Positions 4,184 through 59,776 of a stretch of 64,000 bases of DNA are shown piece after piece. The DNA lies in assembly GCA_017601245.1 (NCBI GenBank), contig JAFNJB010000056.1, positions 4,002 to 68,001 of the forward strand, in the 5' to 3' direction. Each line of letters starts with the position of its first letter. The stretch's first letter is position 1. The notes beneath the pieces were generated by a model, which made no database searches, had not been told where the DNA came from, and worked only from the letters and a program-made list of their open reading frames with translations. This stretch comes from Candidatus Brockarchaeota archaeon. Lineage in GTDB: Archaea > Thermoproteota > EX4484-205 > JAAOZP01. The position numbers and the translations under genes were made by a program.

Positions 4184-5009
4184 TACACACGCTTGTTTCA
4201 ATAACCCTGCCGAATCTTGAAAGCGCTTCTTTAACTCTGCCAGCAACCTCAGGCTTAGAAACAGCTGCGACCGCAGGACCCTTTCCGGATACTCCTGCTG
4301 CAATAGCTCCAGCCCTAATAGCTTCTAAAGCGGGTTCGCTGCTTATCCCTAAGGCTGCCGAGACAGCTAGGCCGTTGAGAGTCATTGCAGTCCACTCTTC
4401 GCCTTCGAGAGCAAGCTTGTGAGCAAGCCTCATCAGTGGTTCAACGGGTTTGAAGAGCGCTGTGTCGATACTGCCACTCAACACACCGCCGGGCGGGACT
4501 AGTATCAGAACCCTTAGGGAACCGTCAACGATCCTCCTGGCAATTAGCCTCTTCTCAAAGTTGTTCGTAATGGTTATTCCGCCCAGTAAGCATGCTGAAG
4601 CATCGTCGAAAGCGCCCGTTATTGAAACACCTGCTTGAATACTCGCCTCCGCGGAATACTCTGCAGCTTTTAACAGGTCTACTTCTCCACATATTTCCTT
4701 TAAACACGCTAGTGCAACAGCCGATGATACTGCACTGCTAGATTTCAATCCTTTCTTAGCAGGTATTTCCGAGGAAACGTTTATCGTACAACCATATTGG
4801 ACGCCGTGGTCTCTGAAAATCAGGCTACATACTTTTTCAAGAAGATTGCCAGGTTTTAATAGTTTCCCATTGGAGTATATTTTGAAAACCGGTTCGTTAA
4901 CAAGCTTAAATGATGCCTCTACCTTAAGCCCCACGCCCAATGCAGCCCCCAGCCCATTTGCCATAGCATTCACGATGCTTACTGCACCATGGACAACGGC
5001 CCTGCTCAA
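4161..5009 (-). CDS. aroK: Archaeal GHMP-family shikimate kinase
   Basis: GHMP kinase motif (PAKKGLKSSSAVSSAVALA), glycine-rich N-terminus, position between aroE and aroA. Confidence 0.8.
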   Translation of the reverse strand: MSRAVVHGAVSIVNAMANGLGAALGVGLKVEASFKLVNEPVFKIYSNGKLLKPGNLLEKVCSLIFRDHGVQYGCTINVSSEIPAKKGLKSSSAVSSAVALACLKEICGEVDLLKAAEYSAEASIQAGVSITGAFDDASACLLGGITITNNFEKRLIARRIVDGSLRVLILVPPGGVLSGSIDTALFKPVEPLMRLAHKLALEGEEWTAMTLNGLAVSAALGISSEPALEAIRAGAIAAGVSGKGPAVAAVSKPEVAGRVKEALSRFGRVIETSVCNENARVE

Positions 5010-5851
5010 CCCCTCAACCTCCTGAGGGCTTCATTCCTCATTTCATCCAACGGGGGCTTAATGCCAAACCATATTTCAAAGCTTTCAGCAGCCTGATGTA
5101 CGAGCATTTCTAAACCAGGTATTGAAATAACGCCTTTTTCAGAAGCTTCTTTAACGAGCCTAGTTGGATGAGGAGTGTAAACCATGTCGAGAAGCACTTG
5201 TCCCCTTTTCAAAAATTTGGTTGGAAACGGGGCCTCCCAACTGTTCATCCCCACTGGAGTAGCATTAACCACAACGTCGGCCCTGCTCAAAAATTCAGGG
5301 GCTTCATCCAAGCTTTTAACTTCTACAGTAAACCCCTTTCCCGCAAAGTGGTTTCTTAAAGAGATTGCTCTTTCAATACTCCTATTTAAGACGACTACTC
5401 TACAACCCATTGATAGAAGCGCTAGTGCGGCTGCTCTCGCCCCTCCTCCGGCACCTATTATGACGGCTATTCCACCACCTTGGAAGCCGGTTTGCTTCAA
5501 CGGTTCTTCAACACCTTTAACGTCAGTGTTAAAGCCCTCTAAAACACCGTTGCGTATCCTAACGGTGTTGACGCACCCCGTTAGTTCGGCGGACTTGTCA
5601 AGCTTGTCTAATAGATTTGCAACCGCAACCTTGTGTGGAATTGTTACGTTAAAACCCAAGACGTTGTTAAGCCTAACGAGAGATATGAAAGAATTAAGCA
5701 TATCGCTTGTTACTCTAAGAGCCAAGTATACTGCGTCTAAACCAAGGCTCCTTATCACCTTATTGTGCATTGGCGGGCTCAATGAGTGTGAGACAGGGTC
5801 GCCTATGACAAATAGAATCTTAGTGCTTGAGCTCGGCAGCCACTCTACCAT
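5006..5851 (-). CDS. aroE: Shikimate 5-dehydrogenase
   Basis: ILFVIGDPVSHSLSPPMHN substrate motif and Rossmann GAGGGARAAALAL. Confidence 0.85.
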   Translation of the reverse strand: MVEWLPSSSTKILFVIGDPVSHSLSPPMHNKVIRSLGLDAVYLALRVTSDMLNSFISLVRLNNVLGFNVTIPHKVAVANLLDKLDKSAELTGCVNTVRIRNGVLEGFNTDVKGVEEPLKQTGFQGGGIAVIIGAGGGARAAALALLSMGCRVVVLNRSIERAISLRNHFAGKGFTVEVKSLDEAPEFLSRADVVVNATPVGMNSWEAPFPTKFLKRGQVLLDMVYTPHPTRLVKEASEKGVISIPGLEMLVHQAAESFEIWFGIKPPLDEMRNEALRRLRG

Positions 5852-6525
5852 ATGCCCATCCTCCTGTATATTGAAACCATTTCCCCGAGGGTAACCTGGC
5901 CGGGTGCAAGGGCTTCATCGTATGAAGCATAAGTCATGAAGCCCCCGAGTAGGGGGGAGAGTATTCTAGTGGCGAAGCCCTTCTCACCCATTCCGAAGCA
6001 TATGAGCCTAAACCCCTTAGAACTCTCCAAGAAGAAAAGTAGCGTTGCCTCTTCCACTGGGTTGGTGACCGTAGTAACTATCTTGAAGACGTCAGCACCC
6101 CTCTCCTTCATTTTTGAGAGGATTCTCCTTAAGGTATTTAACCCCGGGGTCTTATTCCAATCGTGGTATGAGAGGATAACTCCTATATCCTTCTTACGGG
6201 CAAGCCTTATTACGCTACGCCATATCCTAGACTTGTATTCGACATCAACGTATTTGAAAGGGGTTTCCAGTGCTTTTTCGAAAAGCCTTAGCCTCTCCCC
6301 TTCACCACCCTTGTAAGCTCCACCATCGTAGAAGGGCCTGATCGTTGCTACTGCCCCTATTCTAGACTTCTCAACTATCCCCATTATTTTCTCGAAGTCT
6401 TCTTCTCTAGCATGGTCTAGCCTAAGCTCAACTAGGCTTGCACCGAGTTTTCGCGAAGAGTAAAACGCCCTCTGAATCCTGTTTAAATCATCTGCCTTAA
6501 CGGAGACGCATATTCTCGGTTTCAA
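5845..6525 (-). CDS. aroD: 3-dehydroquinate dehydratase, type I
   Basis: ICVSVKADDL...ASLVELRLDH TIM-barrel type I DHQase pattern. Confidence 0.8.
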   Translation of the reverse strand: MKPRICVSVKADDLNRIQRAFYSSRKLGASLVELRLDHAREEDFEKIMGIVEKSRIGAVATIRPFYDGGAYKGGEGERLRLFEKALETPFKYVDVEYKSRIWRSVIRLARKKDIGVILSYHDWNKTPGLNTLRRILSKMKERGADVFKIVTTVTNPVEEATLLFFLESSKGFRLICFGMGEKGFATRILSPLLGGFMTYASYDEALAPGQVTLGEMVSIYRRMGIW

Positions 6526-7511
6526 AACTCGAGCATCAGCTCTCCTTCAACAGGTGTCCCAAAGTGTCTACCAACCTTCTTAGGCGCATATGCGATAACC
6601 CTGTCTCCAGGCTTAAGGTCTCTAACGCTAATGGAGCCGTCGGGAGTTACTATCCTTATCGTCTCAGCATCCTGTAGGAAGACTTTTCCACTGTTTTCGT
6701 TTAAACGGACCTCGACCATTCTCAAAGGCCTCTTTTCAACCTTCATCCTGCAGATTGTCAACGGCCTAGCCTCCCCTGATTTCGACACTGCGAGAACGCT
6801 GTCGCCTGATCTCAAGTCGCTCAAATAGGGAGTGGCCCCGTTAATACCCATGATGTACTGCGAAATTGCTCCAGCGTTAACCCTGAAGGGCCTGGGCTTA
6901 GTAAAACCGGATTCAAGCACCTCGGCTTCGACGAGTGTGAAGAGGGATGAGAAAGAGCCTATTAGCATTCCTTCTCCCGGACTCATTACGTCGCAAGTGT
7001 CTATGCACGCCCTCAAGCCCATCCCCGCTTCCGAAACCTTCTCTACAACGGCTTCTCTAAGCTTCAAAACCGCCTCTATGGGTCTCAATGACTCCGCAGC
7101 CTTAGATGCTTCAGAAGGAGACATGTTTAGAGCAACCCCGTCAACGCCAAGCTCTAAGGCCCTGAGGGCCAGCTTAGCTTCTTCGATAGTGGAAACCTCT
7201 GCTATAATCATAGTCCTACCCTTCAGCTTTGCTACAAGGTTCTCCCATGGAATAACCTTCCAATCGGATGTTTTGACTAGTATTTTCCTAAAGCCCATTT
7301 CAACAGCCTTTATCGCAGTCTCCTCATCCTCAGCGCTCTTAACCTCAAGCTCTAAGACGGCTGAAGAAGCGTCAGACCCTACGAGAGAATCCCCCTTAAC
7401 GAGCCTTAGCCTCTCCCCCTTCCCCTCAACAACGCCCATACTCCTAGAAACAACCCTATCAACACCCGGGATGTTCTGAAGCGTATCGTTGAAAGCCCAG
7501 ATCTCCTTCAA
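6522..7511 (-). CDS. 3-dehydroquinate synthase II (archaeal ADH-pathway DHQ synthase)
   Basis: About 330 aa, family-level resemblance to archaeal DHQS-II. Sits between aroD and the DhnA-type aldolase exactly as in archaeal aro operons. Confidence 0.7.
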   Translation of the reverse strand: MKEIWAFNDTLQNIPGVDRVVSRSMGVVEGKGERLRLVKGDSLVGSDASSAVLELEVKSAEDEETAIKAVEMGFRKILVKTSDWKVIPWENLVAKLKGRTMIIAEVSTIEEAKLALRALELGVDGVALNMSPSEASKAAESLRPIEAVLKLREAVVEKVSEAGMGLRACIDTCDVMSPGEGMLIGSFSSLFTLVEAEVLESGFTKPRPFRVNAGAISQYIMGINGATPYLSDLRSGDSVLAVSKSGEARPLTICRMKVEKRPLRMVEVRLNENSGKVFLQDAETIRIVTPDGSISVRDLKPGDRVIAYAPKKVGRHFGTPVEGELMLEF

Positions 7512-8314
7512 CCCTCAACAACCTCCATGGCGTAGTCTACGGAAGCACCTTCATGGACTATTGCCTTCAGCGCCTCAGCCATTTTCCTGGGCTCCTCGTG
7601 TTGGAAAACGTTCCTACCAATGGAGACTCCTGCAGCACCTGCTGAAATAGCGTCTGAAACCATTTTCAGGAATTCTCTCGTCGAAGAAGTCTTCGGACCT
7701 CCGGCTATTACTACGGGTATGTGAGAGGATTCGACTACGAGTTTAAAGGACTCAGGCGAGCCGGTGTAATTCGTCTTTACAACGTCTGCACCAAGCTCTA
7801 CGCCTATTCTCGCAGCGTGGGAAACCTCTTTTGGGGAATGTTCATCCTGGATCTTAGCGCCCCGTGGATACATCATTGCTAAAAGTGGCAGTCCCAGCCT
7901 ACTGCAAGCTCTGGAAGACCTTGCTAGGAAAGATATCTGTTCGCAATCCGTTTCCGAACCAACGTTAACGTGGAGTGAGAAGCCATCTGCACCGAGCGCG
8001 AGGGCCTCTAGCGGTGTTGCGCATGCAGTCTTCCTAAGTCTATCTGGGCTCAAGTCCGTCCCAGCGGAGCCGTGTATTATGAGGCCCATGCTTGAAAAAT
8101 CGAGGAGCTTCGCCCAGCCCTTGTGTACGACAACGGCGTCAACACCACCCTTCGAAAGCTCCTCTACCAGTCTCTTCATATTTTCTAAGCCCTTTACCGG
8201 ACCTATTGAAACACCATGGTCCATTGGGATTATTACCGTCTTACCGTCTTCTCTGAATATCCTCCTAAGCCTCCTTCTCTTAGCAGGATCCGGGTAATCT
8301 AGGATATTCTTCAT
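7508..8314 (-). CDS. 2-amino-3,7-dideoxy-D-threo-hept-6-ulosonate (ADH) synthase, class I aldolase DhnA family
   Basis: DhnA-type aldolase pattern (IIPMDHGVSIGP...HKGW...). Operon context with DHQS-II, asd and ask. Confidence 0.7.
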   Translation of the reverse strand: MKNILDYPDPAKRRRLRRIFREDGKTVIIPMDHGVSIGPVKGLENMKRLVEELSKGGVDAVVVHKGWAKLLDFSSMGLIIHGSAGTDLSPDRLRKTACATPLEALALGADGFSLHVNVGSETDCEQISFLARSSRACSRLGLPLLAMMYPRGAKIQDEHSPKEVSHAARIGVELGADVVKTNYTGSPESFKLVVESSHIPVVIAGGPKTSSTREFLKMVSDAISAGAAGVSIGRNVFQHEEPRKMAEALKAIVHEGASVDYAMEVVEG

Positions 8315-9351
8315 AGAAGCCTCATCTCCCTTAAGAGCTCGGCTACCAGTATCGAGCCTCCTGCAGCACCCCTCACAGTATTATGCGTAAGCGAGACGAA
8401 TTTAACCGTTAAAACACTGCATTTCCTAACCCTGCCTACGACAACACCCATACCGTCCTTGTAATCCCTATCAAGCCTCGTCTGAGGCCTATCCTCTTCT
8501 TCCCTAACCTGTATTACTGGGTCGGGTGCGGATGGTAAGCCCATTCTCTGCGGGAGCGGTTTAAACTCCCTCATTACCTTCTTAACTTCTTCAACATCCG
8601 CATCCTTCTCGAGTTCGACGAAGACATGTAGCATATGGCCGTCTATGGTTGGAACCCTGTTAACACTGGCTGAAATCGGAATATTGAGCGGTTTACCCGG
8701 TTCACCCAATATCTTATTAGTCTCGGTCTGAAGCTTCTCCTCCTCACCCTTTATAAAAGGTATGACGTTATCTATTATGTCTAGAGACTGGACGCCGGGA
8801 TAGCCTGCTCCACTCAACGCTTGTAGAGAGACCACTACTACTTTCTTCAAGCCGAAAGAGTCTAAGAGCGGTTTCAAAGGTATTACCAGAGGCATCGTCG
8901 TGCAATTAGACTTTGTAACAAGGAATCCTTTCCAACGCTTCTCCTCTTGCTGCTTCTCGATCAAGCTAAGATGGTCTGGATTGACCTCAGGGATTATCAT
9001 CGGGACTAGCGGGTCCATCCTAAAGGCGCTCGTTGTGGAGACAACTTTAAAGCCCTCTTCAGCAAGTTTCGGTTCTATTTCGACAGCAACCTCACTGGGG
9101 AGGCTTGAGAAAACGAGGTCAACGTCTTTCAAAGACTCCAGCCTAGTCTCTTGAACCACCATATCCGATACCTGTTCCGGCGGACTACCTCCGAGCAGCC
9201 AGTGCGCAGCCTCCTTGTATTTCTTCCCGACGCTCCTTTCCGAAGCTGTCAAAACCTTTATTTCGAAGAAAGGATGGTTGGAAAGGATTTTAACGAACCT
9301 TTGGCCAACTAGCCCGGTTGCACCGAGTATTGCTACGTTAATCTTCCTCAA
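8311..9351 (-). CDS. asd: Aspartate-semialdehyde dehydrogenase
   Basis: INVAILGATGLVGQRF N-terminal NADP site. Length 346 aa. Confidence 0.85.
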   Translation of the reverse strand: MRKINVAILGATGLVGQRFVKILSNHPFFEIKVLTASERSVGKKYKEAAHWLLGGSPPEQVSDMVVQETRLESLKDVDLVFSSLPSEVAVEIEPKLAEEGFKVVSTTSAFRMDPLVPMIIPEVNPDHLSLIEKQQEEKRWKGFLVTKSNCTTMPLVIPLKPLLDSFGLKKVVVVSLQALSGAGYPGVQSLDIIDNVIPFIKGEEEKLQTETNKILGEPGKPLNIPISASVNRVPTIDGHMLHVFVELEKDADVEEVKKVMREFKPLPQRMGLPSAPDPVIQVREEEDRPQTRLDRDYKDGMGVVVGRVRKCSVLTVKFVSLTHNTVRGAAGGSILVAELLREMRLL

Positions 9352-10555
9352 TCTTAAACGCCTCCGTTAACAATTTGAAAGCCTTCTCAACATGCTCTTG
9401 TGGCAAAACTATTATGAAGTAGGATCCTAGTGTTATGATGCCATGTATGTTTACGCCCTCCTTAGCCAATGGGGCAGATATCCTGTATAATACGCCCGGT
9501 GTTTCATGCAGGTCTGTCCCACGTATTACAATACCTCTTAGGCCCTGTCTAACAGCTAGCCCCACAGAGTCCCCGTCAGCCATGAACACGTCATGCATCC
9601 TCTGAGCATATTCCTCGGGCATATCGCCTTCGAAATAGGCCAGTACCTCCTTATTGTTAGACAAAAAGCCTAGGAACCTACCGTTTTTATTAACCGATTT
9701 AATTATTTCTATTGCCCTCATTACCGAATTCGGACTCCTTCCGACAAAGACCACTGCCGACAATGGTTTTTCGACAATCTCCATGCTTAATGGTGGCATT
9801 GAAGACATTATGAGAGTGCCCTCATTCCTCAGAGTTTTAGAATCGTAACTTATCACCCTGACTTTAAAAGAAGGCGGTAGATAACGGAGCGACGCCTTAT
9901 GTATGAACTTGACGCCCACGTCAGCAAGCGCTGCGAGTTCCTCTGTAGTCAATTCATCAAGTTTCTTCGCCGATTTTATCAACTTTGGATCAGCGGACAT
10001 TATTCCAGATACGCTCGTGACAAGTATTGTATCAGCAGGGTTTAATGCAGATGCTAATATGAAAGCCGTGGAGTCGCTGCCTCCCCTCCCAAGGGTTGTG
10101 ATGTTATTATTCGAGTCCTTACCTATAAAACCTGGGAAAACGACCACATCGTATTCTTTTAAAAGATTCGATACTACCTGCCTTATTCTTCTACAGGACT
10201 CGTCTACAATTATTCTTGCATTACCGTAATTGCTATCCGTTATTATCGGCCACTCTTCGTAAGAGGGGTCTAGGAAAGTCGCCTTAACACCCTTAGCATT
10301 CAAAGTCGAAGAAAAGACTCTTGCACTCGTCCTCTCACCCATGGAAAGTATTTCATCTAACAGCTTTGCATCGTTAGCATCTTTGAAAAGCTGTATGAGA
10401 GTATCTGTTGTAGAACCCATTGCAGAAACTACTACGACAACTTTATTCCCATTCGAGACTTCTTGAGCAACGAGATCAGCAGCATGCTCAACCCTCTCTT
10501 TCGTCGAGAGGGCCGCACCACCGAACTTGACGACAAGAAGACGGTTGGAACTCAT
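9338..10555 (-). CDS. Aspartate kinase (canonical, with C-terminal ACT domains)
   Basis: LVVKFGGAALS, VVVVSAMGSTTD, TTLGRGGSDSTA and SADPKLI amino-acid-kinase motifs. GGAGG Shine-Dalgarno 10-14 nt upstream of ATG. Confidence 0.85.
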   Translation of the reverse strand: MSSNRLLVVKFGGAALSTKERVEHAADLVAQEVSNGNKVVVVVSAMGSTTDTLIQLFKDANDAKLLDEILSMGERTSARVFSSTLNAKGVKATFLDPSYEEWPIITDSNYGNARIIVDESCRRIRQVVSNLLKEYDVVVFPGFIGKDSNNNITTLGRGGSDSTAFILASALNPADTILVTSVSGIMSADPKLIKSAKKLDELTTEELAALADVGVKFIHKASLRYLPPSFKVRVISYDSKTLRNEGTLIMSSMPPLSMEIVEKPLSAVVFVGRSPNSVMRAIEIIKSVNKNGRFLGFLSNNKEVLAYFEGDMPEEYAQRMHDVFMADGDSVGLAVRQGLRGIVIRGTDLHETPGVLYRISAPLAKEGVNIHGIITLGSYFIIVLPQEHVEKAFKLLTEAFKIEED

Positions 10556-10745: not shown

Positions 10746-12320
10746 TTATGTATTCGAGAACTTAAGCAGGAAATACTTGTATCCTGCAACAAGAGCCTCT
10801 TCAGCCGCTTTCAGAATGTTTGTGGAAACGCCGATTGTCGTCCACCTGCTCCCATTAGATTCAAACTCTGCGAGTATCCTCACAGATGCTGCTGTCCCAG
10901 ACGGAGCATCTATTTCCCTAACCCTGAAACCTATTAGGGAAACGTATGCAATCTTAGGGTAGATTGGGCTCAACGCCTTTTTTAAAGCGTTGTCGAAAGC
11001 ATTAACCGGGCCGTTGCCTTCTGCTGAAGCTGTTACGCTTATTCCTCCGACTTTGACTTTAACGATGCATTCCACAACCTGCCTATCGCCCAGCCAGGTT
11101 ACTATAGAAGTCCAGTGTTCGAGTTCAAAGAGTTGAGGCAGACCATAGAGAGACTCGTATATTAAAAGGAAGAGGTTTCCGTCAGCATTCTCGAAAACGT
11201 AACCCTTTGCCTCCAGCTCCTTTACTTTTTTAAGAGCTTCGAAGATTCTAGGGTCTTTCTTATCGATTTCAAAACCCATTTCCTGAGCCTTAGCAGCAAG
11301 ACTGGCAGTACCGGATTGTGAAGAGACGACTATGGCCCTTGTATTGCCGAAGATGGCTGGGTCTGTAAATTCATAAGCCTCCCTGTTCTTTATAACAGCA
11401 TCGCCATGTACACCCCCCTTGTGGGAGAATGCGTATTTTCCAACGAAAGGTTGACGAGGATTTTCTTCGAGAGAAGCAATATCCCTCAAGTACTGCGAGA
11501 CTGTGGAAAGCATCCTTAGGTTAACGTTCATCTTACAATTGAACCTAGTGGCCAGCACTCCTATGACTTGTATAAGGTCGGCGTTTCCACATCTCTCACC
11601 TATACCGTTTATAGTCCCATGTACCATTACAGCCCCAGCTTTGACTGCAGCAATAGTGTTTGCAACAGCCATTCCAGTATCGTTGTGCGCATGAATACCT
11701 ACGGGGGTTTTGAAAAAGTCTACAACCTTCTTCGTTATTTCATAAACCTCCAATGGATCTGAAGCTCCGCGTGTATCAGCCAAGACTAAGAAGGATGCAC
11801 CGGCCTTCTCAGCGCTTTTTAAAACCTCCATGGCGTAGTCAGGATTATCCTTGTAACCGTCGAAGAAATGCTCTGCGTCGAATACTACTTCCTTCCCACA
11901 GTCCCTCAAGTATTTGACACTATCGTAAACCATATTTAGATTCTCTTCAAGCGTCGTGTTTAAAACATCCTTAACGTGAAGGACCCAGGCCTTTCCGAAG
12001 ATTGTTACGGTCGGTATTCCTGGTTGCACTAGGTATTTCAAATCAGCGTCTTCCTCAACCTTCACCATTGGTTTACGTGTCCTTCCGAAGGTTGAGATCC
12101 TAGCTCTAAGCCTATACTTTAAAATCCTTTGGAAAAAAGCGAGGTCTATCGGATTAGTTTCATTAGGCCAACCCCCCTCTATGTAATCCACTCCAAGGTC
12201 GTCGAGCTTAAGGGCTATCTTAATCTTATCTTCGAGCGAGAAGTTAACGCCTACGGCTTGGTTACCATCCCTAAGCGTAGTGTCGAAAACCAGTATTCTA
12301 TTCTCATCTTGACTAATCAT
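10746..12320 (-). CDS. leuA: 2-isopropylmalate synthase / (R)-citramalate synthase family
   Basis: [23 protein letters not shown] motifs, C-terminal LeuA dimerisation/regulatory domain. Length 524 aa. Confidence 0.8.
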
Positions 12321-16008: not shown

Positions 16009-17628
16009 TTGGGAGAACATCCGGAGACAATATATTTAAACTATGCTCCTCAGGCTCTACGAGTGTTGGAAGGTAGAAAAGGGCATATTAGGGATATTAG
16101 GCTGAGGGTTTCGGCGGAGCTTATCCTTAGCAGGGAGCTTATCGGTGACGAGGTTGAAAGGGTTGCCGACTACGCTTTAACAAGCTTCCCCAAGATATTC
16201 TCAAAGGGCGCACCCAGCGGAGAGGCTCCTCAAATAGAGGAGTTGACGGTGAAGGGTAATGTGATAAGCATAACCGTAGCCTCTGGAAGGAGAGTAAGGG
16301 CTCATGAAGCCATTAAAAGGGCTAGAAAGGCTATGGGTGAAGAACTTGGTCCAAGAATGGGGCTTGGAGTAAGGAGCATAAACATAAAGTCTTTCGAAGT
16401 CTCGTTTATAGGCGACAATCTTAGGGAGGTTAAACTACCTCTCGTAAAGAAGGTTGATGTATTCAGGGATTGTTTAAAATACTGGTTTGAACTTAGTGAA
16501 GCAGACCTCTACAACCAAGTGCCGGATAGGATAATAACCCTGTTTATTGAGAAACAGGAGGCCCTCCGAGAAGCTAGGGAAGTGCATAAGATAGTTTGGA
16601 GAAGCATTGAGAAGCCCGTGAAATACAACGGGGACCCTGGGCCGGTTATGGAGGAGGAGGGTTGGGTTAAAAGATTCCACCCAGGGATATGGTATTATCT
16701 TCAACCGTATACAAGCCTCTTGAGGATTTTCGAAAACCTGATCGTTGAGAAGGTACTAGAACCCCTAGGCTTCCAAGAAGTCGTCTTACCAAAGTTAATA
16801 CCACTCGAGGTTATGAAGAAAAAAGGCCAGCTTACCGGTATACCGCATGAAATGCTGTATGTCTGTGAGCCGGGTTTGAGAGAACTAGGCTTTTTCGAAG
16901 AATACGTTGATTCGGTCAAGGTTTTCAATAACACACTGCCTGAACTATTAAAGCCCTTGTTGAAAGAGCCTTCTTTCTGCTTACCCTATGCTCAATGCGA
17001 GCCTTTCTACGAGCTTTTCTCCGGAGAGATCGTCAACCTTGATAACCCACCGGTTAAGCTATACGACAGGTCTGGATTCAGCTTCAGGCATGAAGCCGGG
17101 GGGCTTAGGAGCCTTGAAAGGCTTACTGCATTCACCAGGATAGAAATAGTTTACTTGGGTAGGCCTGAAGAAGTCAGCGAGATAAGAGATCGGCTGATAG
17201 ACAATTACGTCAACTTATTGGACAAGATGCTAGATTTGGAAGTGAGGACTGCTGAAGTAACGCCCGTCTGGATGGCCCATGCCGGCGTAGTCAGCGATGT
17301 GGAGAGGAAGGTCCCGGCGACCCTTGACATAGAAGCCTACTTGCCCTTCAGGGGGGATAGGGAGTCTGCGGAATGGCTTGAAATAGCGAACGCATCCGTA
17401 CACTACGACAAGTACGTGGAATGGTATAACATCAAGGAGAGGAAGAACAGAGAGGTTTGGACGGGTTGTTCCGGAAACGGGCTTGAAAGGTGGATATACG
17501 CATTCCTGGCTAGACACGGTTTTAACGTTGAGGACTGGCCTACTGAAATTAAGAGGCTGTGGAAGTCTCCAAGCACGATATTCATGGACACGTGGCCGCC
17601 TCGAGTGTTAAAACAGCCTCCTCGATAA
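16009..17628 (+). CDS. Class II aminoacyl-tRNA synthetase resembling the atypical methanogen-type seryl-tRNA synthetase. Probable start GTG 16063
   Basis: Motif 2 SGFSFRHEAGGLRSLERLTAFTRIEI, motif 3 TGCSGNGLERWIYAFL. Cys about 40 aa before the motif-2 Glu and Cys in motif 3 match the Cys/Glu/Cys zinc-site spacing of mSerRS. About 170-aa N-terminal extra domain. Confidence 0.55.
   Translation: MGEHPETIYLNYAPQALRVLEGRKGHIRDIRLRVSAELILSRELIGDEVERVADYALTSFPKIFSKGAPSGEAPQIEELTVKGNVISITVASGRRVRAHEAIKRARKAMGEELGPRMGLGVRSINIKSFEVSFIGDNLREVKLPLVKKVDVFRDCLKYWFELSEADLYNQVPDRIITLFIEKQEALREAREVHKIVWRSIEKPVKYNGDPGPVMEEEGWVKRFHPGIWYYLQPYTSLLRIFENLIVEKVLEPLGFQEVVLPKLIPLEVMKKKGQLTGIPHEMLYVCEPGLRELGFFEEYVDSVKVFNNTLPELLKPLLKEPSFCLPYAQCEPFYELFSGEIVNLDNPPVKLYDRSGFSFRHEAGGLRSLERLTAFTRIEIVYLGRPEEVSEIRDRLIDNYVNLLDKMLDLEVRTAEVTPVWMAHAGVVSDVERKVPATLDIEAYLPFRGDRESAEWLEIANASVHYDKYVEWYNIKERKNREVWTGCSGNGLERWIYAFLARHGFNVEDWPTEIKRLWKSPSTIFMDTWPPRVLKQPPR
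16029..16041. promoter_or_regulatory. Shared bidirectional TATA element for divergent leaderless rps3ae (TTG 16006) and the aaRS gene (GTG 16063)
   Basis: AATATATTTAAAC is centred about 28-29 nt from each start codon. Confidence 0.45.
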
Positions 17629-20461: not shown

Positions 20462-21667
20462 ATGGATGTTGAAGGCGAAGCCCTGGTATGCATAGACTGT
20501 GGTAGAGTGCATAAGCCGGGTCCGGGTGTATTGGTTTGCGAGAAGTGTAATGGCCTGCTTGAAGTATCCTATCCTAAAAGTGTTTTCGGGAATGTTTCAT
20601 TCAATGGGACGGGGGTTTGGAGGTATAGTAGCCTACTGCCTAAGGTAGATAGGATTATCACCTTGAACGAGGGTAATACCCCTCTCGTTAAGGCTGAGAA
20701 CCTGGGTAGGAAAATAGGCTTAAGAAACCTGTATGTCAAGTTTGAAGGAGCTAATCCAACAGGCTCTTTCAAAGACAGAGGCATGACTGTGGGAGTAAGC
20801 ATTGCTTTAAAATTCGGCCAAAAGAGCGTTGCATGCGCTTCAACGGGCAACACTTCCGCTTCCATGGCTGCTTATGCTGCGAGAGCAGGGTTGAAGAGCT
20901 TCGTATTCCTCCCGGACGGTTACGTTGCTGCCGGCAAGCTCCTCCAGGCAATAGCGCACGGAGCGACAATAGTTAAGGTGAGGGGAAATTTCGATGATGC
21001 CTTAAGAATCCTACTCTCACACTCTGCGGAATTGGGAGTATACGTCCTCAACTCAGTAAACCCATATAGGATAGAGGGTCAGAAGACTACTGCTTTCGAG
21101 ATATGGGAGGGGTTGGGAAAGACTCCCGAGTTTGTAGTATACCCCGTTGGAAACGCCGCTAATATTTCCTCTGGCTGGAAGGGTTTTATCGAGCTTAAGG
21201 AAGCAGGACTCGCAAATTCCCTCCCTAAGATGGTTGGTGTTCAAGCCGAAGGAGCTGCTCCAATAGTTAAGGCTTTCTTAGAGGGTAGGGGTGAGATAGA
21301 ACCTGTTGAGAAACCCGAGACCGTTGCGACGGCTATAAGGATAGGAAGGCCATTGTCCTGGAAAAAAGCACTGAGGGCAATAAGGGATTCGAAAGGAACC
21401 GCGGTGACTGTGAGCGATGAGGAGATACTCAGAGCCCAAGTCGAATTGGCGAGGACAGAGGGGATTTTTGCAGAGCCCGCTGGGGCAGCATCCATAGCCG
21501 GAGTATTAAAGCTGTCTAGAGAAGGATATTTCAAAGGCGATGACACTGTTGTTGCTGTGGTTACTGGACACGGTTTGAAAGACCCGGAGGTCAAGATAAT
21601 GCCGTATGCCGAGCTAGTGATACAGCCGGATGAAAATCCTGTGGAAGCGTTGAGGAAACTATTATGA
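20462..21667 (+). CDS. thrC: Threonine synthase (N-terminal zinc ribbon)
   Basis: PLP-site SFKDRGM, N-terminal CxxC...CxxC. 401 aa. Confidence 0.85.
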   Translation: MDVEGEALVCIDCGRVHKPGPGVLVCEKCNGLLEVSYPKSVFGNVSFNGTGVWRYSSLLPKVDRIITLNEGNTPLVKAENLGRKIGLRNLYVKFEGANPTGSFKDRGMTVGVSIALKFGQKSVACASTGNTSASMAAYAARAGLKSFVFLPDGYVAAGKLLQAIAHGATIVKVRGNFDDALRILLSHSAELGVYVLNSVNPYRIEGQKTTAFEIWEGLGKTPEFVVYPVGNAANISSGWKGFIELKEAGLANSLPKMVGVQAEGAAPIVKAFLEGRGEIEPVEKPETVATAIRIGRPLSWKKALRAIRDSKGTAVTVSDEEILRAQVELARTEGIFAEPAGAASIAGVLKLSREGYFKGDDTVVAVVTGHGLKDPEVKIMPYAELVIQPDENPVEALRKLL

Positions 21668-22674
21668 GGATACTTCTCATAGGCTTTGGAAACGTCGGCA
21701 GGGCTTTCCTACAGCTCTTAGAAGAGGAGAGGCGCAGATTCAGGAAGATCGGTGTCGACCCCAAGGTTGTTGGTGTAGTAGACAGGGGCGGTGCAGCAAT
21801 ATTCAAAGAAGGTGTTAAAACCAGTAGAATACTGGAGGTCAAGGCTGAGAAGGGTAGCGTAGCATATTCTGAAGAAGGAGGCTTCCCCCAGATGGATGCT
21901 CTAGAGGCAATTAGCATCGTTCAACCAGATTTAACGATTGAAGCAACATCTACGAGTAGAGGGGGATCCGGGCCTGCCTTGAAACATATTGTCAAAGCCC
22001 TTGAGAACGGTTCGCATGTCGTCTCAGCCAATAAGGCTCCCTTCGCATACGATTACGACACTGTTATGAGGGTAGCGCTATCCAGAGGCAGGCTTGTAAA
22101 ATACAGTGCTACAGTCGGAGGGGGGCTTCCCGTTTTGAAAACGCTCAGGACGCTTACGATCGGCGATGTTGTAGAGAGTTGTAGAGGAGTCTTGAATGCA
22201 ACCTCTAATTATATACTAACATTGATGGAGGAGGGCCGGAGTTATAGTGAAGCTTTGAAACTGGCGCAGGAAATAGGTATTGCCGAAACAGACCCGACTA
22301 TGGACGTTTCAGGAATGGATACTGCCTACAAGATAACTATAATAGCCAATACGATAGAGGGGGGACATAGTGTAAACGAGGTTGAAATAACCGGTATTGA
22401 AAACATCAGATTTGAAGACTTGCGAGAAGCCGCTTCAAGCGGGTATTCAATAAGGCTTCTGGGAGAGTTTACTGAAGAGGGTAAGCTTAGAGTAGGGCCT
22501 TCAAAGCTTAAGAGGGGGAGTACGCTCGATGTAAGCGGGACGCTGAACGCGGTGGAGTTCAAGATGAGGAGAGCTGGACCAGTATGCTTAACCGGAAAGG
22601 GCGCTGGACCCTTTGAAACCGCTGCAGCAATAATAAGAGACATATTCGAAATAGTGGAGGAGGCTATGCGTTGA
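21664..22674 (+). CDS. hom: Homoserine dehydrogenase
   Basis: ILLIGFGNVGRAF Rossmann N-terminus. Operon context with thrC. Confidence 0.8.
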   Translation: MRILLIGFGNVGRAFLQLLEEERRRFRKIGVDPKVVGVVDRGGAAIFKEGVKTSRILEVKAEKGSVAYSEEGGFPQMDALEAISIVQPDLTIEATSTSRGGSGPALKHIVKALENGSHVVSANKAPFAYDYDTVMRVALSRGRLVKYSATVGGGLPVLKTLRTLTIGDVVESCRGVLNATSNYILTLMEEGRSYSEALKLAQEIGIAETDPTMDVSGMDTAYKITIIANTIEGGHSVNEVEITGIENIRFEDLREAASSGYSIRLLGEFTEEGKLRVGPSKLKRGSTLDVSGTLNAVEFKMRRAGPVCLTGKGAGPFETAAAIIRDIFEIVEEAMR

Positions 22675-24026
22675 AAATAGTCAGTTTAAACCTTGAGAAT
22701 ACCGGTCTTGAAATAAAAGACCTTTGCAAGAAGCTTGTTGAAGAAGCTGATGAAGAGCTTATTTTAATCGTAGAGCCACGTGAAGATGCTGTTAAAATAT
22801 TGTCCGATGCAGCATTGTCCCGAATAAGTGAAGAAGAAGCCATTGAGAAACTGGCGGCTGAATTAAACAATCTTTCAAGAGGAATCGCGGAAGAAAATAA
22901 AAGAATTGTTGAAGCAGAAATCGTAGAGAGCCTTAATAAAATATCAGAGTACTTACGTGCTGAGAAGAAAGCTGGCGGGGCAACGCCTAAGGGCATATCA
23001 CTAATGTTAAACACTTTATGCAATACGATTACAATAATTGTTTCAAACCATTTTAAGTCCCTTGGGAAGGATGCTAAGTGGCTTACCGCGGGGCAGGCAG
23101 GATTCACGCTAATTGAAGACTATGAGCTCCCGTGGAGCCATTACGTAAGCCTCAGCAAGCCTGAGGAATTGAGAAAAGCCTTAACTGGAATACTCGTTTT
23201 ATCCGGTAGGGTCTGCTTCGACAAACAGGGTAATGAGACAAACCTTAGGAAAGGGATGGGCAGCGTCATCGCAATACTAGTAGCCAACGAAATCGGGGTA
23301 AAGGAGGTTTACGTGCCTAAGGCGAATGGCGGGGTCTACACCGCCGATCCGAACATTGTGGAGAATGCGAGAGTAATACCGAGCCTGTCGTATGCTGAAG
23401 CCCTTGAGCTCTCTAGGCTTGGAGAATGGTTTGTAAGCCCGCAAGCTGTTGAACTTGCTGAAGAGCTTGGAGTGAGAATACTCGTTACGAATATTAAGAG
23501 CCCCTTCAAGGAGTCTACAATAATAGGTTTTGAGAAAGCTGTTGAAAAACAGATAGTTAAGGCTGTAGCAATGATACCTGACATGAGCATCTTAACTGTT
23601 GAAGGCGCTGCCATGGCCGGTACGCCTGGAGTAGCATCGGCAATACTCGGAGAAGTTGCTAAAAGAGGAGTAAGCATATGTATGATAAGCCAAGATGCTT
23701 CAGAAGTAGGAATAACACTCGTAGTCAGAGATGCCGACTTAGAAAGGGCTTTGAAGGGGTTAAGAGAAGGGTTCAGCAGGGAGAGGATTGTTAAGAGAAT
23801 AAGGATTCAGAGAAACGTGGCAGTAATCTCAGCAGTCGGAGAAGGAATGAGAGGGACCAGAGGCGTAGCGGCGAGGATATTCTCAGCCGTTGCTGAAGCA
23901 GGCGTTAACGTCTTGGCAATAGCCCAGGGCTCCTCAGAGACAAGCATATCCTTCGTAGTACTAATGGAAGATGCTAAGAAGGCTGTTAAAGCGGTTCACG
24001 ACAAGGTTATCCTAGGTATCCAATAA
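22671..24026 (+). CDS. Aspartokinase-like paralog with two C-terminal ACT domains but degenerate catalytic motifs
   Basis: VYTADPNIV and tandem ACT domains are conserved. KFGG is replaced by SLNLEN and LGRGGSD by LRKGMGS. Confidence 0.6.
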   Translation: MKIVSLNLENTGLEIKDLCKKLVEEADEELILIVEPREDAVKILSDAALSRISEEEAIEKLAAELNNLSRGIAEENKRIVEAEIVESLNKISEYLRAEKKAGGATPKGISLMLNTLCNTITIIVSNHFKSLGKDAKWLTAGQAGFTLIEDYELPWSHYVSLSKPEELRKALTGILVLSGRVCFDKQGNETNLRKGMGSVIAILVANEIGVKEVYVPKANGGVYTADPNIVENARVIPSLSYAEALELSRLGEWFVSPQAVELAEELGVRILVTNIKSPFKESTIIGFEKAVEKQIVKAVAMIPDMSILTVEGAAMAGTPGVASAILGEVAKRGVSICMISQDASEVGITLVVRDADLERALKGLREGFSRERIVKRIRIQRNVAVISAVGEGMRGTRGVAARIFSAVAEAGVNVLAIAQGSSETSISFVVLMEDAKKAVKAVHDKVILGIQ

Positions 24027-55774: not shown

Positions 55775-56488
55775 ATGTTAGGCTTCTTCAGGGAGGAGAA
55801 GCAGATGCCTCATAAAAATGCAGTTGCATATGGCACAGCATCGTGTATAATGGGAATCATGATACTTTTTGCAAGCATCTTTTTGTTTTCACAATACATT
55901 TCTAAAACGGCGAATCAGTACTTAGCAATAACAGTAATAATAATAATGCTAACAGCATCTTCTTTAGTGATTCTATCTGGAGCATATTTAAGGCACTTAG
56001 GCAAGACTTGGCCAGTTACAGTCCCTATAAAGACAGCAGGAGGAACTAGTCCGAAAAAGCAGTTTCAAAAAACCCCTTCTTTGCAAAATGTGACATATCA
56101 TGAGACAGTATCTAAAAGCCAAGAGGCTACTAAGATTTGTCCTAAATGTGGGACTGCAAACGATGCAAAATACAAGTTCTGCTTTAGATGCGGAACAATT
56201 TTATTTGAAATTCCTATGGAAACACTGCCAAGTACTGAGATTGAAGTTGAAGAATTTGTTTTCTGTCAAGTCTGTGGTAAAAAGCTAGCAAAGAATTCGA
56301 AATACTGCAGTTCTTGTGGAGCACCACTATCTGGGGCCGAAACGCTTCCTCCACCACCCCCACCACCAGACATAGAGAAAAGATTAGAAGAATTAGAAGA
56401 AAAGATTAGGAGTTTAGAGGAATCGTTAAAGAAAATCACGGAATCGAAGAGTTTTGAAAACAAAAATGAAACAAGCATATTTGAATAG
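55775..56488 (+). CDS. Membrane protein with two zinc-ribbons, poly-Pro linker and C-terminal coiled coil
   Basis: Two TM helices. CPKCG..(14)..CFRCG and CQVCG..(11)..CSSCG. PPPPPPP. EELEEKIRSLEESLKK. Confidence 0.5.
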   Translation: MLGFFREEKQMPHKNAVAYGTASCIMGIMILFASIFLFSQYISKTANQYLAITVIIIMLTASSLVILSGAYLRHLGKTWPVTVPIKTAGGTSPKKQFQKTPSLQNVTYHETVSKSQEATKICPKCGTANDAKYKFCFRCGTILFEIPMETLPSTEIEVEEFVFCQVCGKKLAKNSKYCSSCGAPLSGAETLPPPPPPPDIEKRLEELEEKIRSLEESLKKITESKSFENKNETSIFE

Positions 56489-56556
56489 AAGGATACAAAG
56501 AATACAATCATGAAAAATTGTTAAACCTGCAAGTTGGAAATAGTAGATAAGAAAGC

Positions 56557-57263: not shown

Positions 57264-57432
57264 TATGTCTGGTTATTGTCTCATAAGCTCAACCAGGTAG
57301 TTAAGTAATTCCTTGGTTTCGGAAGTCTGGGGAGCCTGGAGGAAGCTGTAGACCAGCATCCAGCCATTTCTTATAAAAAATGAACCATAGCCAGTAACAT
57401 TTTTAAGCAAAAATGAACAATATAACATTATA

Positions 57433-59130: not shown

Positions 59131-59179
59131 TACGAGAAAGTATGTGCTCGCATCCAAATCGCATGCTTACTTCACTCAG

Positions 59180-59770: not shown

Positions 59771-59776
59771 TTTACT

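What the first reader, a model, noticed from the sequence alone, without database searches (positions are those of the whole stretch)
22671..24026. Catalytically degenerate aspartokinase paralog (pseudo-kinase with intact ACT domains) closing the thrC-hom cluster
The protein aligns along the amino-acid-kinase fold (VYTADPNIV, AEALELSRLG) and has two clear C-terminal ACT domains. But the phosphate-binding KFGG is replaced by SLNLEN, and the catalytic LGRGGSD by LRKGMGS. Both the lysine and the aspartate are lost. The canonical enzyme, with all motifs, is encoded separately at 9338-10555. Candidate roles are a threonine/lysine-sensing regulatory subunit of the real aspartokinase, or an enzyme that has switched substrate. 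No homoserine kinase (thrB) is visible in this thr cluster.
Basis: partly seen in the sequence, partly recalled or inferred. Interest (0 to 1): 0.65.

Follow-up and report, generated by a model that had tools for sequence, protein, structure and literature searches.

The report
Dead aspartokinase paralog in threonine operon
A hot-spring archaeon (Brockarchaeota) keeps, directly behind its homoserine dehydrogenase gene, a well-conserved copy of aspartate kinase that has lost every residue known to be needed for catalysis but has kept intact amino-acid-sensing domains, so it most likely works as a feedback sensor and not as an enzyme.

Summary
ORF 22671-24026 (+, 451 aa) has the full class-I aspartokinase fold (AlphaFold pLDDT 88.6; TM 0.86 to M. 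jannaschii AK). It has two strong ACT domains. Every catalytic or substrate-binding residue checked is replaced: K->S5, E->N118, R->K194, D->S198, and both glycine loops.

It is not a decaying gene. The thrC-hom-AK' operon, including a TTGA stop/start overlap, is conserved in 12/12 Brockarchaeota genomes. dN/dS is 0.06-0.15, the same as thrC and hom.

The ACT half is as similar to real AKs as they are to each other (46% vs 49%). The kinase half is not (23% vs 50%).

An exhaustive HMMER search finds one tight family restricted to this clade. I found no literature on it.

The real AK (9338-10555) heads an aromatic-amino-acid operon with asd.

Best reading: a pseudoenzyme kept as a (probably threonine-) sensing regulatory subunit of the threonine branch. 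Its most likely partner is the co-translated homoserine dehydrogenase ("split ThrA with a dead kinase"). The partner and the ligand are inferred, not shown.

GHMP ThrB is absent from this clade in published KO tables. Extra apgM-family paralogs (candidate HomK) make a kinase role for AK' unnecessary.

Verdict: new variant of a known kind, moderate interest.

The parts
22671..24026 (+). AK' : aspartokinase-derived pseudoenzyme, 451 aa, TTG start
   Evidence: ORF. Best NCBIfam hit PRK06291 at 266.6 bits, below the 528 cut-off. Full AK fold: pLDDT 88.6, TM 0.86 to 2hmf_A. 20 full-length orthologues at 69-92% identity.
22671..23540 (+). Kinase-like (amino-acid-kinase fold) domain, residues 1-290, with all catalytic and substrate motifs replaced (S5/LNLEN, EPRE, N118, K194-G-M-G-S198, PKANGG, GEW)
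   Evidence: Alignments. Pfam AA_kinase only 53 bits. 23% identity to canonical AKs, against 50% among canonical AKs. dN/dS 0.07-0.18. Former active-site loops are more conserved than the rest of the domain (entropy 0.42 vs 0.84 bits, p=7e-8).
23541..24011 (+). Two tandem ACT domains (about residues 298-367 and 376-447) with intact Gly-rich ligand loops (EGAAMAGTPGVA, GEGMRGTRGVA) and ISQ(D/G)(A/S)SE motifs
   Evidence: Pfam ACT_9 137.5 bits, 2 stretches. 46% identity to canonical AKs. Searched alone, the ACT region ranks Thr-sensitive MjAK (124.8 bits) and E. coli ThrA ACT 6mx1 (106 bits) far above Lys-sensitive AKIII (33.6). dN/dS 0.04-0.12.
22656..22674 (+). GGAGGAGG Shine-Dalgarno-like motif (22656-22663) and TTGA overlap (AK' start TTG 22671-22673, hom stop TGA 22672-22674): a translational-coupling signal
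   Evidence: Sequence. The TTGA overlap is in all 12 genomes; the upstream purine-rich motif is present in all of them with minor variation (GGAGGAGG in most, e.g. GGAGGAAG in L007).
21664..22674 (+). hom, homoserine dehydrogenase, 336 aa, without an ACT domain of its own. Proposed partner.
   Evidence: NF004912 326 bits end to end; NF004976 217.2 against a cut-off of 205. ATGA overlap with thrC. Synteny in 11/11 loci.
20462..21667 (+). thrC, threonine synthase, first gene of the operon
   Evidence: TIGR00260 337 bits against a cut-off of 167.1.
9338..10555 (-). Canonical (LysC-type) aspartate kinase with all catalytic motifs and a weak regulatory region. First gene of the AK-asd-aro operon.
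   Evidence: Sequence. TIGR00657 254.9 against 208.7; NF005159 335 bits end to end. Only one weak ACT hit.
8311..9351 (-). asd, aspartate-semialdehyde dehydrogenase, overlapping the AK gene
   Evidence: NF006416 487 bits against a cut-off of 232.

Best explanation
AK' descends from a class-I (M. jannaschii / ThrA-type, threonine-sensitive) aspartokinase. It has lost phosphoryl-transfer and aspartate-binding capacity and is retained as a non-catalytic allosteric sensor of the threonine branch.

Its two ACT domains still dimerise and bind an amino-acid effector, most probably L-threonine. The remodelled but strongly constrained kinase-like domain passes that signal on to a partner enzyme.

The most likely partner is homoserine dehydrogenase. 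Hom lacks an ACT domain of its own and is made from the same mRNA through a conserved stop/start overlap. The pair would then behave like a split ThrA (AK-HSDH I) whose kinase half is dead.

Threonine would throttle the branch-point enzyme and leave the single real AK free to supply aspartate semialdehyde to the aromatic-amino-acid (DKFP) pathway.

Shown: fold, loss of catalytic residues, intact ACT modules, purifying selection on both halves, conserved operon and coupling, restriction to one clade.
Inferred: the effector identity, that a complex forms at all, and that Hom is the partner.
For: - Catalytic K and D, aspartate-binding E and R, and both Gly loops are replaced. Residue roles are from PMC4142519.
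- The full AK fold is kept.
- Domain asymmetry: the ACT half is 46% identical to canonical AKs (canonical vs canonical 49%). The kinase half is 23% (canonical vs canonical 50%).
- Searched alone, the ACT region is closest to Thr-binding MjAK and E. coli ThrA, and far from Lys-sensitive AKs.
- dN/dS is 0.06-0.15 for AK', against 0.04-0.17 for thrC and hom. The kinase-like half alone is 0.07-0.18.
- thrC-hom-AK' is conserved in 11/11 full loci. The TTGA overlap and the SD-like motif are present in 12/12.
- Hom is 336 aa with no ACT domain.
- The second-best NCBIfam hit of AK' is the AK+ACT part of bifunctional AK-HSDH I (244 bits).
- A near-canonical class-I AK lies directly downstream of hom in another archaeal contig (L019). 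This gives a plausible ancestral hom-AK pair.
- The real AK and asd head a 10-gene aromatic operon that uses aspartate semialdehyde, so feedback at Hom makes more metabolic sense than feedback at AK.
- A degenerate AK-like gene coexists with a genuine thrB and thrC in one operon elsewhere (L020). At least one such protein is therefore not a ThrB substitute.
- A dead amino-acid-kinase domain used as a regulatory module has a precedent in NAGS/ArgA (PMC10464499).
Against: - There is no direct evidence of any protein-protein contact.
- Operon membership equally fits ThrC as the partner.
- The other degenerate AK-likes (L020, L021) are next to thrB/thrC, not hom.
- The former active-site loops are the most conserved part of the kinase-like domain, and they carry new invariant motifs (EPRE, EDYExPWSHYV, KGMGS, PKANGG). 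This fits a partner interface but also a new ligand or catalytic site.
- ACT1 carries a family-specific change (ISQGSSE -> ISQDASE), so the effector may not be threonine.
- Standalone Hom of this type works elsewhere without AK'.
Confidence: 0.45

Rival explanations
1. AK' is a trans-acting regulatory subunit of the real aspartokinase (9338-10555). It would pair through its ACT domains as the LysC beta subunit does in alpha2beta2 AKs, and would give threonine sensitivity to an AK whose own regulatory region is weak.
For: Pseudoenzymes often regulate their active paralogues (general knowledge). The degeneracy is complementary: the real AK has a strong kinase domain but only one weak ACT hit, and AK' is the reverse. 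AK oligomers assemble through ACT pairing (PMC4142519). Degenerate AK-likes elsewhere sit in thr operons without hom.
Against: The two genes are about 12 kb apart on opposite strands in different operons. They belong to different AK classes: PRK06291/ThrA type against LysC type NF005159. The LysC-type AK aligns end to end with a curated family built from other taxa, while AK' is confined to one clade, so that AK type does not need AK'. The real AK has a possible internal SD+ATG (M249) that could make its own beta subunit (speculative). Shutting AK down with threonine would also starve the co-transcribed aromatic pathway.
Confidence: 0.2
2. AK' is a repurposed enzyme, most provocatively the missing homoserine kinase or phosphotransferase of ThrB-less Brockarchaeota, using a new set of catalytic residues in the old cleft.
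For: It occupies the slot where thrB usually sits (thrC-hom-X). In De Anda et al. 2021 Supplementary Data 6, K00872 (thrB) is found only in four genomes that lack the K00003 hom, and in none of the six genomes with the hom/AK' operon. Homoserine is nearly isosteric with aspartate. The cleft loops are highly conserved, with new charged residues (R37, K194, K217).
Against: Every element used for phosphoryl transfer in the amino-acid-kinase family is lost: the Lys, both Gly loops and the Asp. The TD->KA and GAK->GEW changes remove nucleotide contacts. The MjAK R241 equivalent varies freely within the family. To my knowledge (not searched here), no member of this fold is known to phosphorylate a hydroxyl. 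All six AK' genomes carry 2-3 apgM-family genes, against 0-1 in the ThrB genomes. This fits HomK (TIGR02535), a validated ThrB alternative. In L020 a degenerate AK coexists with a real thrB.
Confidence: 0.08
3. AK' is an amino-acid-binding protein acting on another target, such as ThrC, a transporter or gene expression. Alternatively it simply buffers or senses a metabolite as a homodimer, without Hom or AK as a partner.
For: thrC is coupled in the same operon (ATGA overlap). The degenerate AK-like in L021 is directly followed by thrC. The conserved flexible acidic/aromatic loop EDYExPWSHYV (pLDDT below 50 at 151-154) looks like a docking element for an unknown partner.
Against: I know of no precedent for ACT-mediated trans-regulation of archaeal ThrC (not searched here). 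The gene is stop/start-coupled specifically to hom.
Confidence: 0.15
4. AK' is a non-functional relic (pseudogene in progress) or an annotation or frameshift artefact.
For: Loss of all catalytic motifs.
Against: The ORF is intact at 450-452 aa in 21 sequences. dN/dS is 0.06-0.15, equal to the neighbouring housekeeping genes. The start and the coupling signal are conserved. The fold is predicted with confidence.
Confidence: 0.02

Closest known systems
Threonine-sensitive class-I aspartokinase of Methanocaldococcus jannaschii (PDB 2HMF, 3C1M, 3C1N)
   Same: Same overall fold (TM 0.86 over the full length) and the same two-ACT regulatory module. Best sequence match (E 4e-54). The ACT region is about 46% identical to this AK type.
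   Different: The catalytic Lys and Asp, the aspartate-binding Glu and Arg, both glycine loops and most nucleotide contacts are replaced. Scores fall below every curated AK cut-off.
Bifunctional aspartokinase-homoserine dehydrogenase I (E. coli ThrA; NCBIfam PRK09436; ACT region PDB 6MX1)
   Same: AK-type domain, two Thr-type ACT domains and HSDH acting together in the threonine branch. Second-best NCBIfam hit (244 bits). The ACT region matches 6MX1 at 106 bits.
   Different: Here the two parts are separate polypeptides, the gene order is reversed (hom first), and the kinase part is dead. Physical association is inferred only.
LysC beta subunit (ACT-only regulatory subunit of alpha2beta2 aspartokinases of Corynebacterium and Thermus; PDB 2DTJ, 2DT9)
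   Same: A non-catalytic polypeptide carrying two ACT domains that supplies effector sites in trans.
   Different: The beta subunit is only the ACT pair, made from an internal start in lysC. AK' is a separate gene that keeps a full-length, constrained kinase-like domain and belongs to another AK class.
HisZ (catalytically dead histidyl-tRNA synthetase paralogue that makes short HisG histidine-sensitive)
   Same: Works-like analogue: a pseudoenzyme paralogue, encoded with the pathway, that keeps its ligand-sensing ability and regulates a biosynthetic enzyme allosterically.
   Different: Unrelated fold and pathway. For HisZ the complex is experimentally established.
Amino-acid-kinase domain of N-acetylglutamate synthase (ArgA/NAGS)
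   Same: A member of the same fold family (PF00696) that has lost kinase activity and serves as the regulatory (arginine-binding) domain (PMC10464499, section on NAGS).
   Different: In NAGS it is fused to the catalytic acetyltransferase domain, and the effector binds the kinase-like domain itself. AK' is free-standing and has separate ACT sensors.
Homoserine kinases ThrB (GHMP) and HomK (TIGR02535, apgM-like)
   Same: Genomic position: the last gene of a thr operon in a genome without a GHMP ThrB.
   Different: No fold or motif similarity. AK' lacks recognisable phosphoryl-transfer residues.

Membership tests
Aspartate kinase (EC 2.7.2.4), class I; NCBIfam PRK06291 / TIGR00657; Pfam PF00696 + 2 ACT | Amino-acid-kinase fold followed by two ACT domains | tested here: met
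   AF2 model pLDDT 88.6, pTM 0.85. Foldseek 2hmf_A TM 0.86, E 1.6e-39. Pfam ACT_9 x2.
Aspartate kinase (EC 2.7.2.4), class I; NCBIfam PRK06291 / TIGR00657; Pfam PF00696 + 2 ACT | Score at or above the curated family cut-off | tested here: not met
   PRK06291 266.6 < 528. TIGR00656 210.5 < 402. TIGR00657 202.0 < 208.7. Pfam AA_kinase covers only profile positions 87-234.
Aspartate kinase (EC 2.7.2.4), class I; NCBIfam PRK06291 / TIGR00657; Pfam PF00696 + 2 ACT | Catalytic Lys in the N-terminal KFGG glycine loop (AKIII K8) | tested here: not met
   VMKFGGTS aligns with IVSLNLEN. Position 5 is S/N/T in the family. Strand 2-7 in the model confirms the register.
Aspartate kinase (EC 2.7.2.4), class I; NCBIfam PRK06291 / TIGR00657; Pfam PF00696 + 2 ACT | Catalytic Asp and glycine loop of LGRGGSD (AKIII D202) | tested here: not met
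   LGRGGSD aligns with LRKGMGS; D -> S198, invariant in the family.
Aspartate kinase (EC 2.7.2.4), class I; NCBIfam PRK06291 / TIGR00657; Pfam PF00696 + 2 ACT | Aspartate-binding Glu (AKIII E119) and Arg (R198) | tested here: not met
   E -> N118 (invariant), R -> K194. Roles from PMC4142519.
Aspartate kinase (EC 2.7.2.4), class I; NCBIfam PRK06291 / TIGR00657; Pfam PF00696 + 2 ACT | Nucleotide-binding Asp/Arg of the TxDPR motif (MjAK D239, R241), plus the TD of WTDVDG and the Lys of GAKVLHP | tested here: not met
   D226 is kept. The Arg position is N/S/G/W/L within the family. TD -> KA and AK -> EW.
Aspartate kinase (EC 2.7.2.4), class I; NCBIfam PRK06291 / TIGR00657; Pfam PF00696 + 2 ACT | Aspartate-dependent ATP turnover | not testable with these tools
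   Needs an enzyme assay.
Thr-type ACT effector module of class-I AK / ThrA | Two tandem ACT domains with Gly-rich beta1-alpha1 loops and the ISQGSSE motif | tested here: met
   G312, M315, G317, P319, G320, Q341, S344, E345, G390, M393, G395, G398, Q419-E423 are invariant or nearly so across AK' and canonical AKs. ACT1 reads ISQDASE in the family.
Thr-type ACT effector module of class-I AK / ThrA | Closer to threonine-binding than to lysine-binding ACT modules | tested here: met
   ACT-only search: MjAK 124.8 bits, ThrA 6mx1 106, AKIII 33.6, AtAK 38.7.
Thr-type ACT effector module of class-I AK / ThrA | Binds L-threonine; dimerises through ACT pairing | not testable with these tools
   Needs ITC/DSF and SEC-MALS, or a multimer prediction.
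Pseudoenzyme regulatory subunit (HisZ-like; NAGS AAK-domain-like) | Clear homology to an active enzyme family with loss of its catalytic residues | tested here: met
Pseudoenzyme regulatory subunit (HisZ-like; NAGS AAK-domain-like) | Maintained by purifying selection, including the dead domain | tested here: met
   dN/dS 0.06-0.15 overall and 0.07-0.18 for residues 1-290, against 0.04-0.17 for thrC and hom.
Pseudoenzyme regulatory subunit (HisZ-like; NAGS AAK-domain-like) | Forms a complex with, and modulates, a catalytic partner | not testable with these tools
   Only indirect support: a conserved TTGA stop/start overlap with hom in 12/12 genomes.
Bifunctional AK-HSDH (ThrA, PRK09436) | AK, ACT and HSDH domains in one polypeptide, in that order | tested here: not met
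   Separate genes in the order hom then AK'. 244 bits against a cut-off of 726, matching profile positions 65-459 only.
Homoserine kinase (ThrB GHMP, TIGR00191; HomK, TIGR02535) | GHMP-kinase or alkaline-phosphatase-superfamily fold and motifs | tested here: not met
   ThrB and HomK models are absent from the 25 NCBIfam families listed for AK' (28 matched at E<=1), and Pfam finds no GHMP or metalloenzyme domain. The fold is AK.
Pyrococcus paired aspartokinase subunit (TIGR02078 AspKin_pair) | Score above the family cut-off; short form lacking the central ~100 residues | tested here: not met
   33.4 bits against a cut-off of 242.4. AK' is full length.

The most novel reading that the evidence does not exclude
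AK' is the missing homoserine kinase or phosphotransferase of the ThrB-less Brockarchaeota clade. That would make it the first amino-acid-kinase-fold enzyme that phosphorylates a hydroxyl group, using a newly evolved catalytic set (for example R37/K194/K217 with E35/E38/E149/D150 as base) in the remodelled cleft, and still feedback-controlled through its ACT domains. The evidence does not exclude it: AK' sits in the thrB slot of the operon, thrB is undetected in 6/6 genomes of the clade, and the cleft is the most conserved part of the domain.
Probability: 0.07. Interest if true: 0.85.

Novelty: new variant of a known kind. Interest (0 to 1): 0.55.

Why it matters
1. Annotation. JGI and some NCBI records name this protein 'aspartate kinase'. 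Pathway reconstructions for Brockarchaeota can therefore credit the threonine operon with an AK it does not have. They can also overlook the real AK, which scores below KOfam and NCBIfam equivalog cut-offs and sits in an aromatic operon.

2. Biology. It would add aspartokinase to the short list of amino-acid-pathway enzymes that gave rise to stand-alone pseudoenzyme sensors (HisZ, NAGS AAK domain). It would also show how feedback control can move from the first common step to the branch point when aspartate semialdehyde must also feed the archaeal aromatic pathway.

3. Generality. At least two unrelated degenerate AK-like genes sit in bacterial thr operons (L020, L021). A wider, unrecognised class may exist.

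4. Testability. The three genes are small and soluble-looking, so the hypotheses can be tested directly in E. coli.

Tried and rejected
- Shifted motifs. I looked for KxGG or GGSD elsewhere. The only KAGG (residues 100-103) lies in the helical insert and is not conserved. Rejected.
- Pseudogene or artefact. Rejected on dN/dS, intact length in 21 sequences and the conserved start.
- Ancestral context. The closest canonical AKs (P0027, P0023, P0024, P0022) are next to asd or unrelated genes, not thrC-hom. Uninformative.
- P0123 as a second 'KFGG-less AK after hom'. Rejected. Its start was mis-called, and the in-frame upstream sequence reads MRIVMKFGASSL. It is a near-canonical AK and is useful only as a possible ancestral hom-AK arrangement.
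- P0140 (720 aa, degenerate AK fused to HSDH) as a Rosetta-stone fusion. Not used. Its HSDH NAD-binding domain is not detected by Pfam and looks shortened in the alignment, and the protein is a singleton.
- Modelling an AK'-linker-Hom chain with AlphaFold as a crude interaction test.
- Direct search for HomK or ThrB in the same genomes. Only per-genome counts were obtained.
- Retrieving the MjAK threonine-site residue list. The papers (Liu 2008, Faehnle 2006) are not held.
- Literature searches for pseudo- or inactive aspartokinases found nothing relevant.
- The 4-kb insertion after AK' in L002 is a 1078-aa surface-type protein and is unrelated.
Full report
**Observation**

It is the third gene of a tightly packed thrC (20462-21667) - hom (21664-22674) - AK' unit. 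thrC and hom overlap by ATGA, and hom and AK' overlap by TTGA.

Pfam sees two strong ACT domains (ACT_9 137.5 bits). The amino-acid-kinase match is only partial: 53.4 bits, residues 122-274 on profile positions 87-234. Genuine AKs give 151-176 bits over the whole profile.

All NCBIfam aspartokinase models are hit, but all below their cut-offs. The best is PRK06291 at 266.6 against 528. The general TIGR00657 gives 202.0 against 208.7.

**Are the motifs really lost?**

HMMER alignment to the M. jannaschii enzyme (3c1m/2hmf, E 4e-54) and a MAFFT alignment with seven canonical AKs agree on these substitutions:
- VMKFGGTS -> IVSLNLEN
- VSAMxGVT -> VEPREDAV
- FGERLS -> LCNTIT
- TLGRGGSD -> NLRKGMGS
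- WTDVDG -> PKANGG
- TTDPR -> TADPN
- FGAKVLHP -> LGEWFVSP

In E. coli AKIII, K8 and D202 are catalytic, and E119 and R198 hold the amino and carboxylate groups of aspartate. In MjAK, D239 and R241 bind the nucleotide (PMC4142519). The equivalents here are S5, S198, N118, K194, D226 and N229. Position 229 varies freely among orthologues (N/S/G/W/L).

An AlphaFold model (pLDDT 88.6, pTM 0.85) superposes on MjAK over its whole length (TM 0.86). Strand 2-7 stands in for the KFGG strand.

**Is it a functional gene?**

A word-indexed search found 20 full-length relatives of 69-92% identity. After those, identity drops to 40% or less, and those hits are ordinary AKs.

An exhaustive HMMER search of 1.84 billion cluster representatives found one representative at 875 bits. 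The next hit scored 252 bits. The family is therefore a single tight cluster.

Genome hits come from MAGs labelled Candidatus Brockarchaeota, Thermoproteota or Nitrososphaerota. They include two MAGs from the original Brockarchaeota paper.

In all 11 loci that cover the region, the order ITPase / thrC-hom-AK' / bud32-kae1 is the same. AK' is about as conserved as its neighbours. The TTGA overlap is present in 12/12 genomes, and so is the preceding purine-rich SD-like motif, with minor variation.

Pairwise dN/dS is 0.06-0.15 for AK', against 0.04-0.17 for thrC and hom. The dead kinase-like half alone gives 0.07-0.18 and the ACT half 0.04-0.12. A decaying relic is excluded.

**Anatomy of the divergence**

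Against canonical AKs, the ACT half is 46% identical. Canonical AKs share 49% among themselves. The kinase half is 23% identical, against 50% among canonical AKs. The sensor module was kept, and the catalytic module was rebuilt and then frozen.

Within the family, the loops that used to form the active site are more conserved than the rest of the domain (mean entropy 0.42 vs 0.84 bits, p=7e-8). They carry new invariant motifs: EPRE, GQAGF...EDYExPWSHYV, KGMGS and PKANGG. Part of the EDYE loop is predicted to be flexible (pLDDT below 50 at 151-154).

Searched alone, the ACT region ranks the threonine-sensitive MjAK (124.8 bits) and the E. coli ThrA regulatory domain (106 bits) far above lysine-sensitive AKs (33-53 bits). 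ACT1 has a family-specific ISQDASE in place of ISQGSSE.

**Metabolic setting**

The canonical AK (9338-10555, - strand) has all motifs and passes TIGR00657. It is a LysC-type enzyme with only one weak ACT hit. It overlaps asd and heads a co-directional run of ten genes:
- ADH synthase and dehydroquinate synthase II
- aroD and aroE
- GHMP shikimate kinase
- aroA and aroC
- chorismate mutase-prephenate dehydratase

ADH synthase and dehydroquinate synthase II mark the archaeal route to aromatic amino acids, which starts from aspartate semialdehyde (established knowledge of the DKFP pathway). The one active AK visible here is thus wired to aromatic biosynthesis. A citramalate synthase lies next door.

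**The thrB question**

No ThrB is present in the window. Supplementary Data 6 of De Anda et al. 2021 (PMC8065059) gives the following KofamKOALA assignments:
- hom (K00003) in six genomes: GD2, JZZ.4, DRTY-6.80, QC448, QZM_A2 and QZM_A3. Two of these are loci L004 and L006.
- thrB (K00872) in four other genomes.

The two sets do not overlap.

The same table gives the six hom/AK' genomes 2-3 apgM-family genes each, and the four thrB genomes 0-1. An apgM-like protein (HomK, TIGR02535) has been validated as an alternative to ThrB (bioRxiv 10.1101/2024.10.14.618325). The extra paralogue is therefore the obvious candidate. I could not test this directly.

**Relatives elsewhere**

Among the weaker hits of the exhaustive search, some AK-like proteins have lost part of the catalytic set.
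- P0151 has K->S, E->V and GR->QQ. It is followed by a genuine thrB (384 bits against a cut-off of 194) and thrC (L020).
- P0227 (Spirochaetales) keeps the Lys but lacks the Gly loop, the Arg and the Glu. It is followed by thrC (L021).

These are singletons and were followed only this far. They show that degenerate AKs recur in thr operons, and that one of them coexists with ThrB.

P0123 looked like another case. Its start had been mis-called, and the true N-terminus reads MRIVMKFGASSL. It is a near-canonical class-I AK lying immediately after hom, which is a plausible picture of the ancestral arrangement.

**Interpretation**

What is shown:
- AK' is an aspartokinase-derived protein that lacks every residue known to be required for aspartate phosphorylation, so aspartokinase activity by the known mechanism is very unlikely. 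Activity itself was not assayed.
- It keeps an intact Thr-type ACT sensor.
- It is under selection over its whole length.
- It is co-translated with Hom.

What I infer:
- It is an allosteric sensor subunit.
- Threonine is the effector.
- Hom, which has no ACT domain (336 aa), is the target.

Under this model the pair forms a split, kinase-dead version of ThrA. Feedback at Hom would spare the aspartate-semialdehyde supply for aromatic amino acids.

Rivals, in order:
1. A beta-subunit-like regulator of the real AK. This is possible because of the complementary degeneracy. It is disfavoured by gene location, by the different AK class, and by the fact that the LysC-type AK exists elsewhere without AK'.
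2. Another partner, such as ThrC.
3. A repurposed enzyme, including a novel homoserine kinase. This is unlikely given the loss of all phosphoryl-transfer elements and the HomK candidates.
4. A relic. This is refuted.

**Comparison with what is known**

- Closest by sequence and fold: MjAK and the AK+ACT part of ThrA.
- Closest by proposed mechanism: the LysC beta subunit, HisZ, and the dead amino-acid-kinase domain of NAGS.
- It fails the defining catalytic features of aspartokinase and should not be annotated as one.
- Full-text searches found no description of an inactive aspartokinase paralogue.

I rate it a new variant of a known kind (pseudoenzyme sensor derived from a pathway enzyme), of moderate interest (0.55).

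Noticed in passing
window 736-10555 (- strand): The canonical aspartokinase and asd head a co-directional ten-gene aromatic-amino-acid cluster: AK, asd, ADH synthase, dehydroquinate synthase II, aroD, aroE, GHMP shikimate kinase, aroA, aroC, chorismate mutase-prephenate dehydratase. The only active AK seen here is therefore wired to the aspartate-semialdehyde-dependent archaeal shikimate route.
   Followed up: partly
window about 9790-9830 (- strand), inside the canonical AK gene: GAGG..GAGGG lies 10 nt upstream of an in-frame ATG (Met249), at the kinase/regulatory boundary. This resembles the internal start that yields the LysC beta subunit in bacteria. Speculative.
   Followed up: no
L020 656-4393 and L021 3302-6019: Two unrelated AK-like proteins (P0151; P0227 from a Spirochaetales MAG) have partly lost the catalytic and substrate residues. 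They sit in thr operons: P0151-thrB-thrC and P0227-thrC. Degenerate aspartokinases in thr operons may be a wider, undescribed class. Both are singletons in the database.
   Followed up: partly
L019 4783-7383: The gene call for P0123 starts too late. The in-frame upstream sequence gives MRIVMKFGASSL right after the hom stop codon. It is a near-canonical class-I AK directly downstream of hom (with GRGGSD changed to GVGGSD).
   Followed up: yes
De Anda et al. 2021 (PMC8065059), Supplementary Data 6: Across 15 Brockarchaeota MAGs, hom (K00003) and thrB (K00872) are called in disjoint sets of genomes. dapA appears only in non-hom genomes (three of the four thrB genomes plus DRTY-6.200), and lysC passes threshold in only one genome. 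The hom/AK' genomes have 2-3 apgM-family genes, which are possible HomK.
   Followed up: partly
window 22671-24026 and database names: JGI and some NCBI records call members of this family 'aspartate kinase'. Other NCBI records say 'ACT domain-containing protein'. The first name is probably a functional mis-annotation.
   Followed up: yes
window 10746-12320 (- strand): A citramalate synthase (TIGR00977, 600 bits) lies next to the AK gene. It suggests that isoleucine is made by the citramalate route and not from threonine.
   Followed up: no
window 56000-60000 and 59777-63826: A low-GC stretch (0.40 against about 0.47). It contains an AAA_14/DUF4143 ATPase (57433-58764) and is followed by a 1349-aa ORF with no Pfam match. 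Possibly foreign DNA.
   Followed up: no
window 16009-17628 (+): A 539-aa class-II aminoacyl-tRNA-synthetase-like protein with a tRNA_bind_4 N-terminal domain, the architecture of methanogen-type seryl-tRNA synthetase. It is conserved next to the operon in all loci.
   Followed up: no
L002 11423-14659: One genome has a 1078-aa secreted or surface-type protein inserted between AK' and bud32. It is absent from the other loci.
   Followed up: partly
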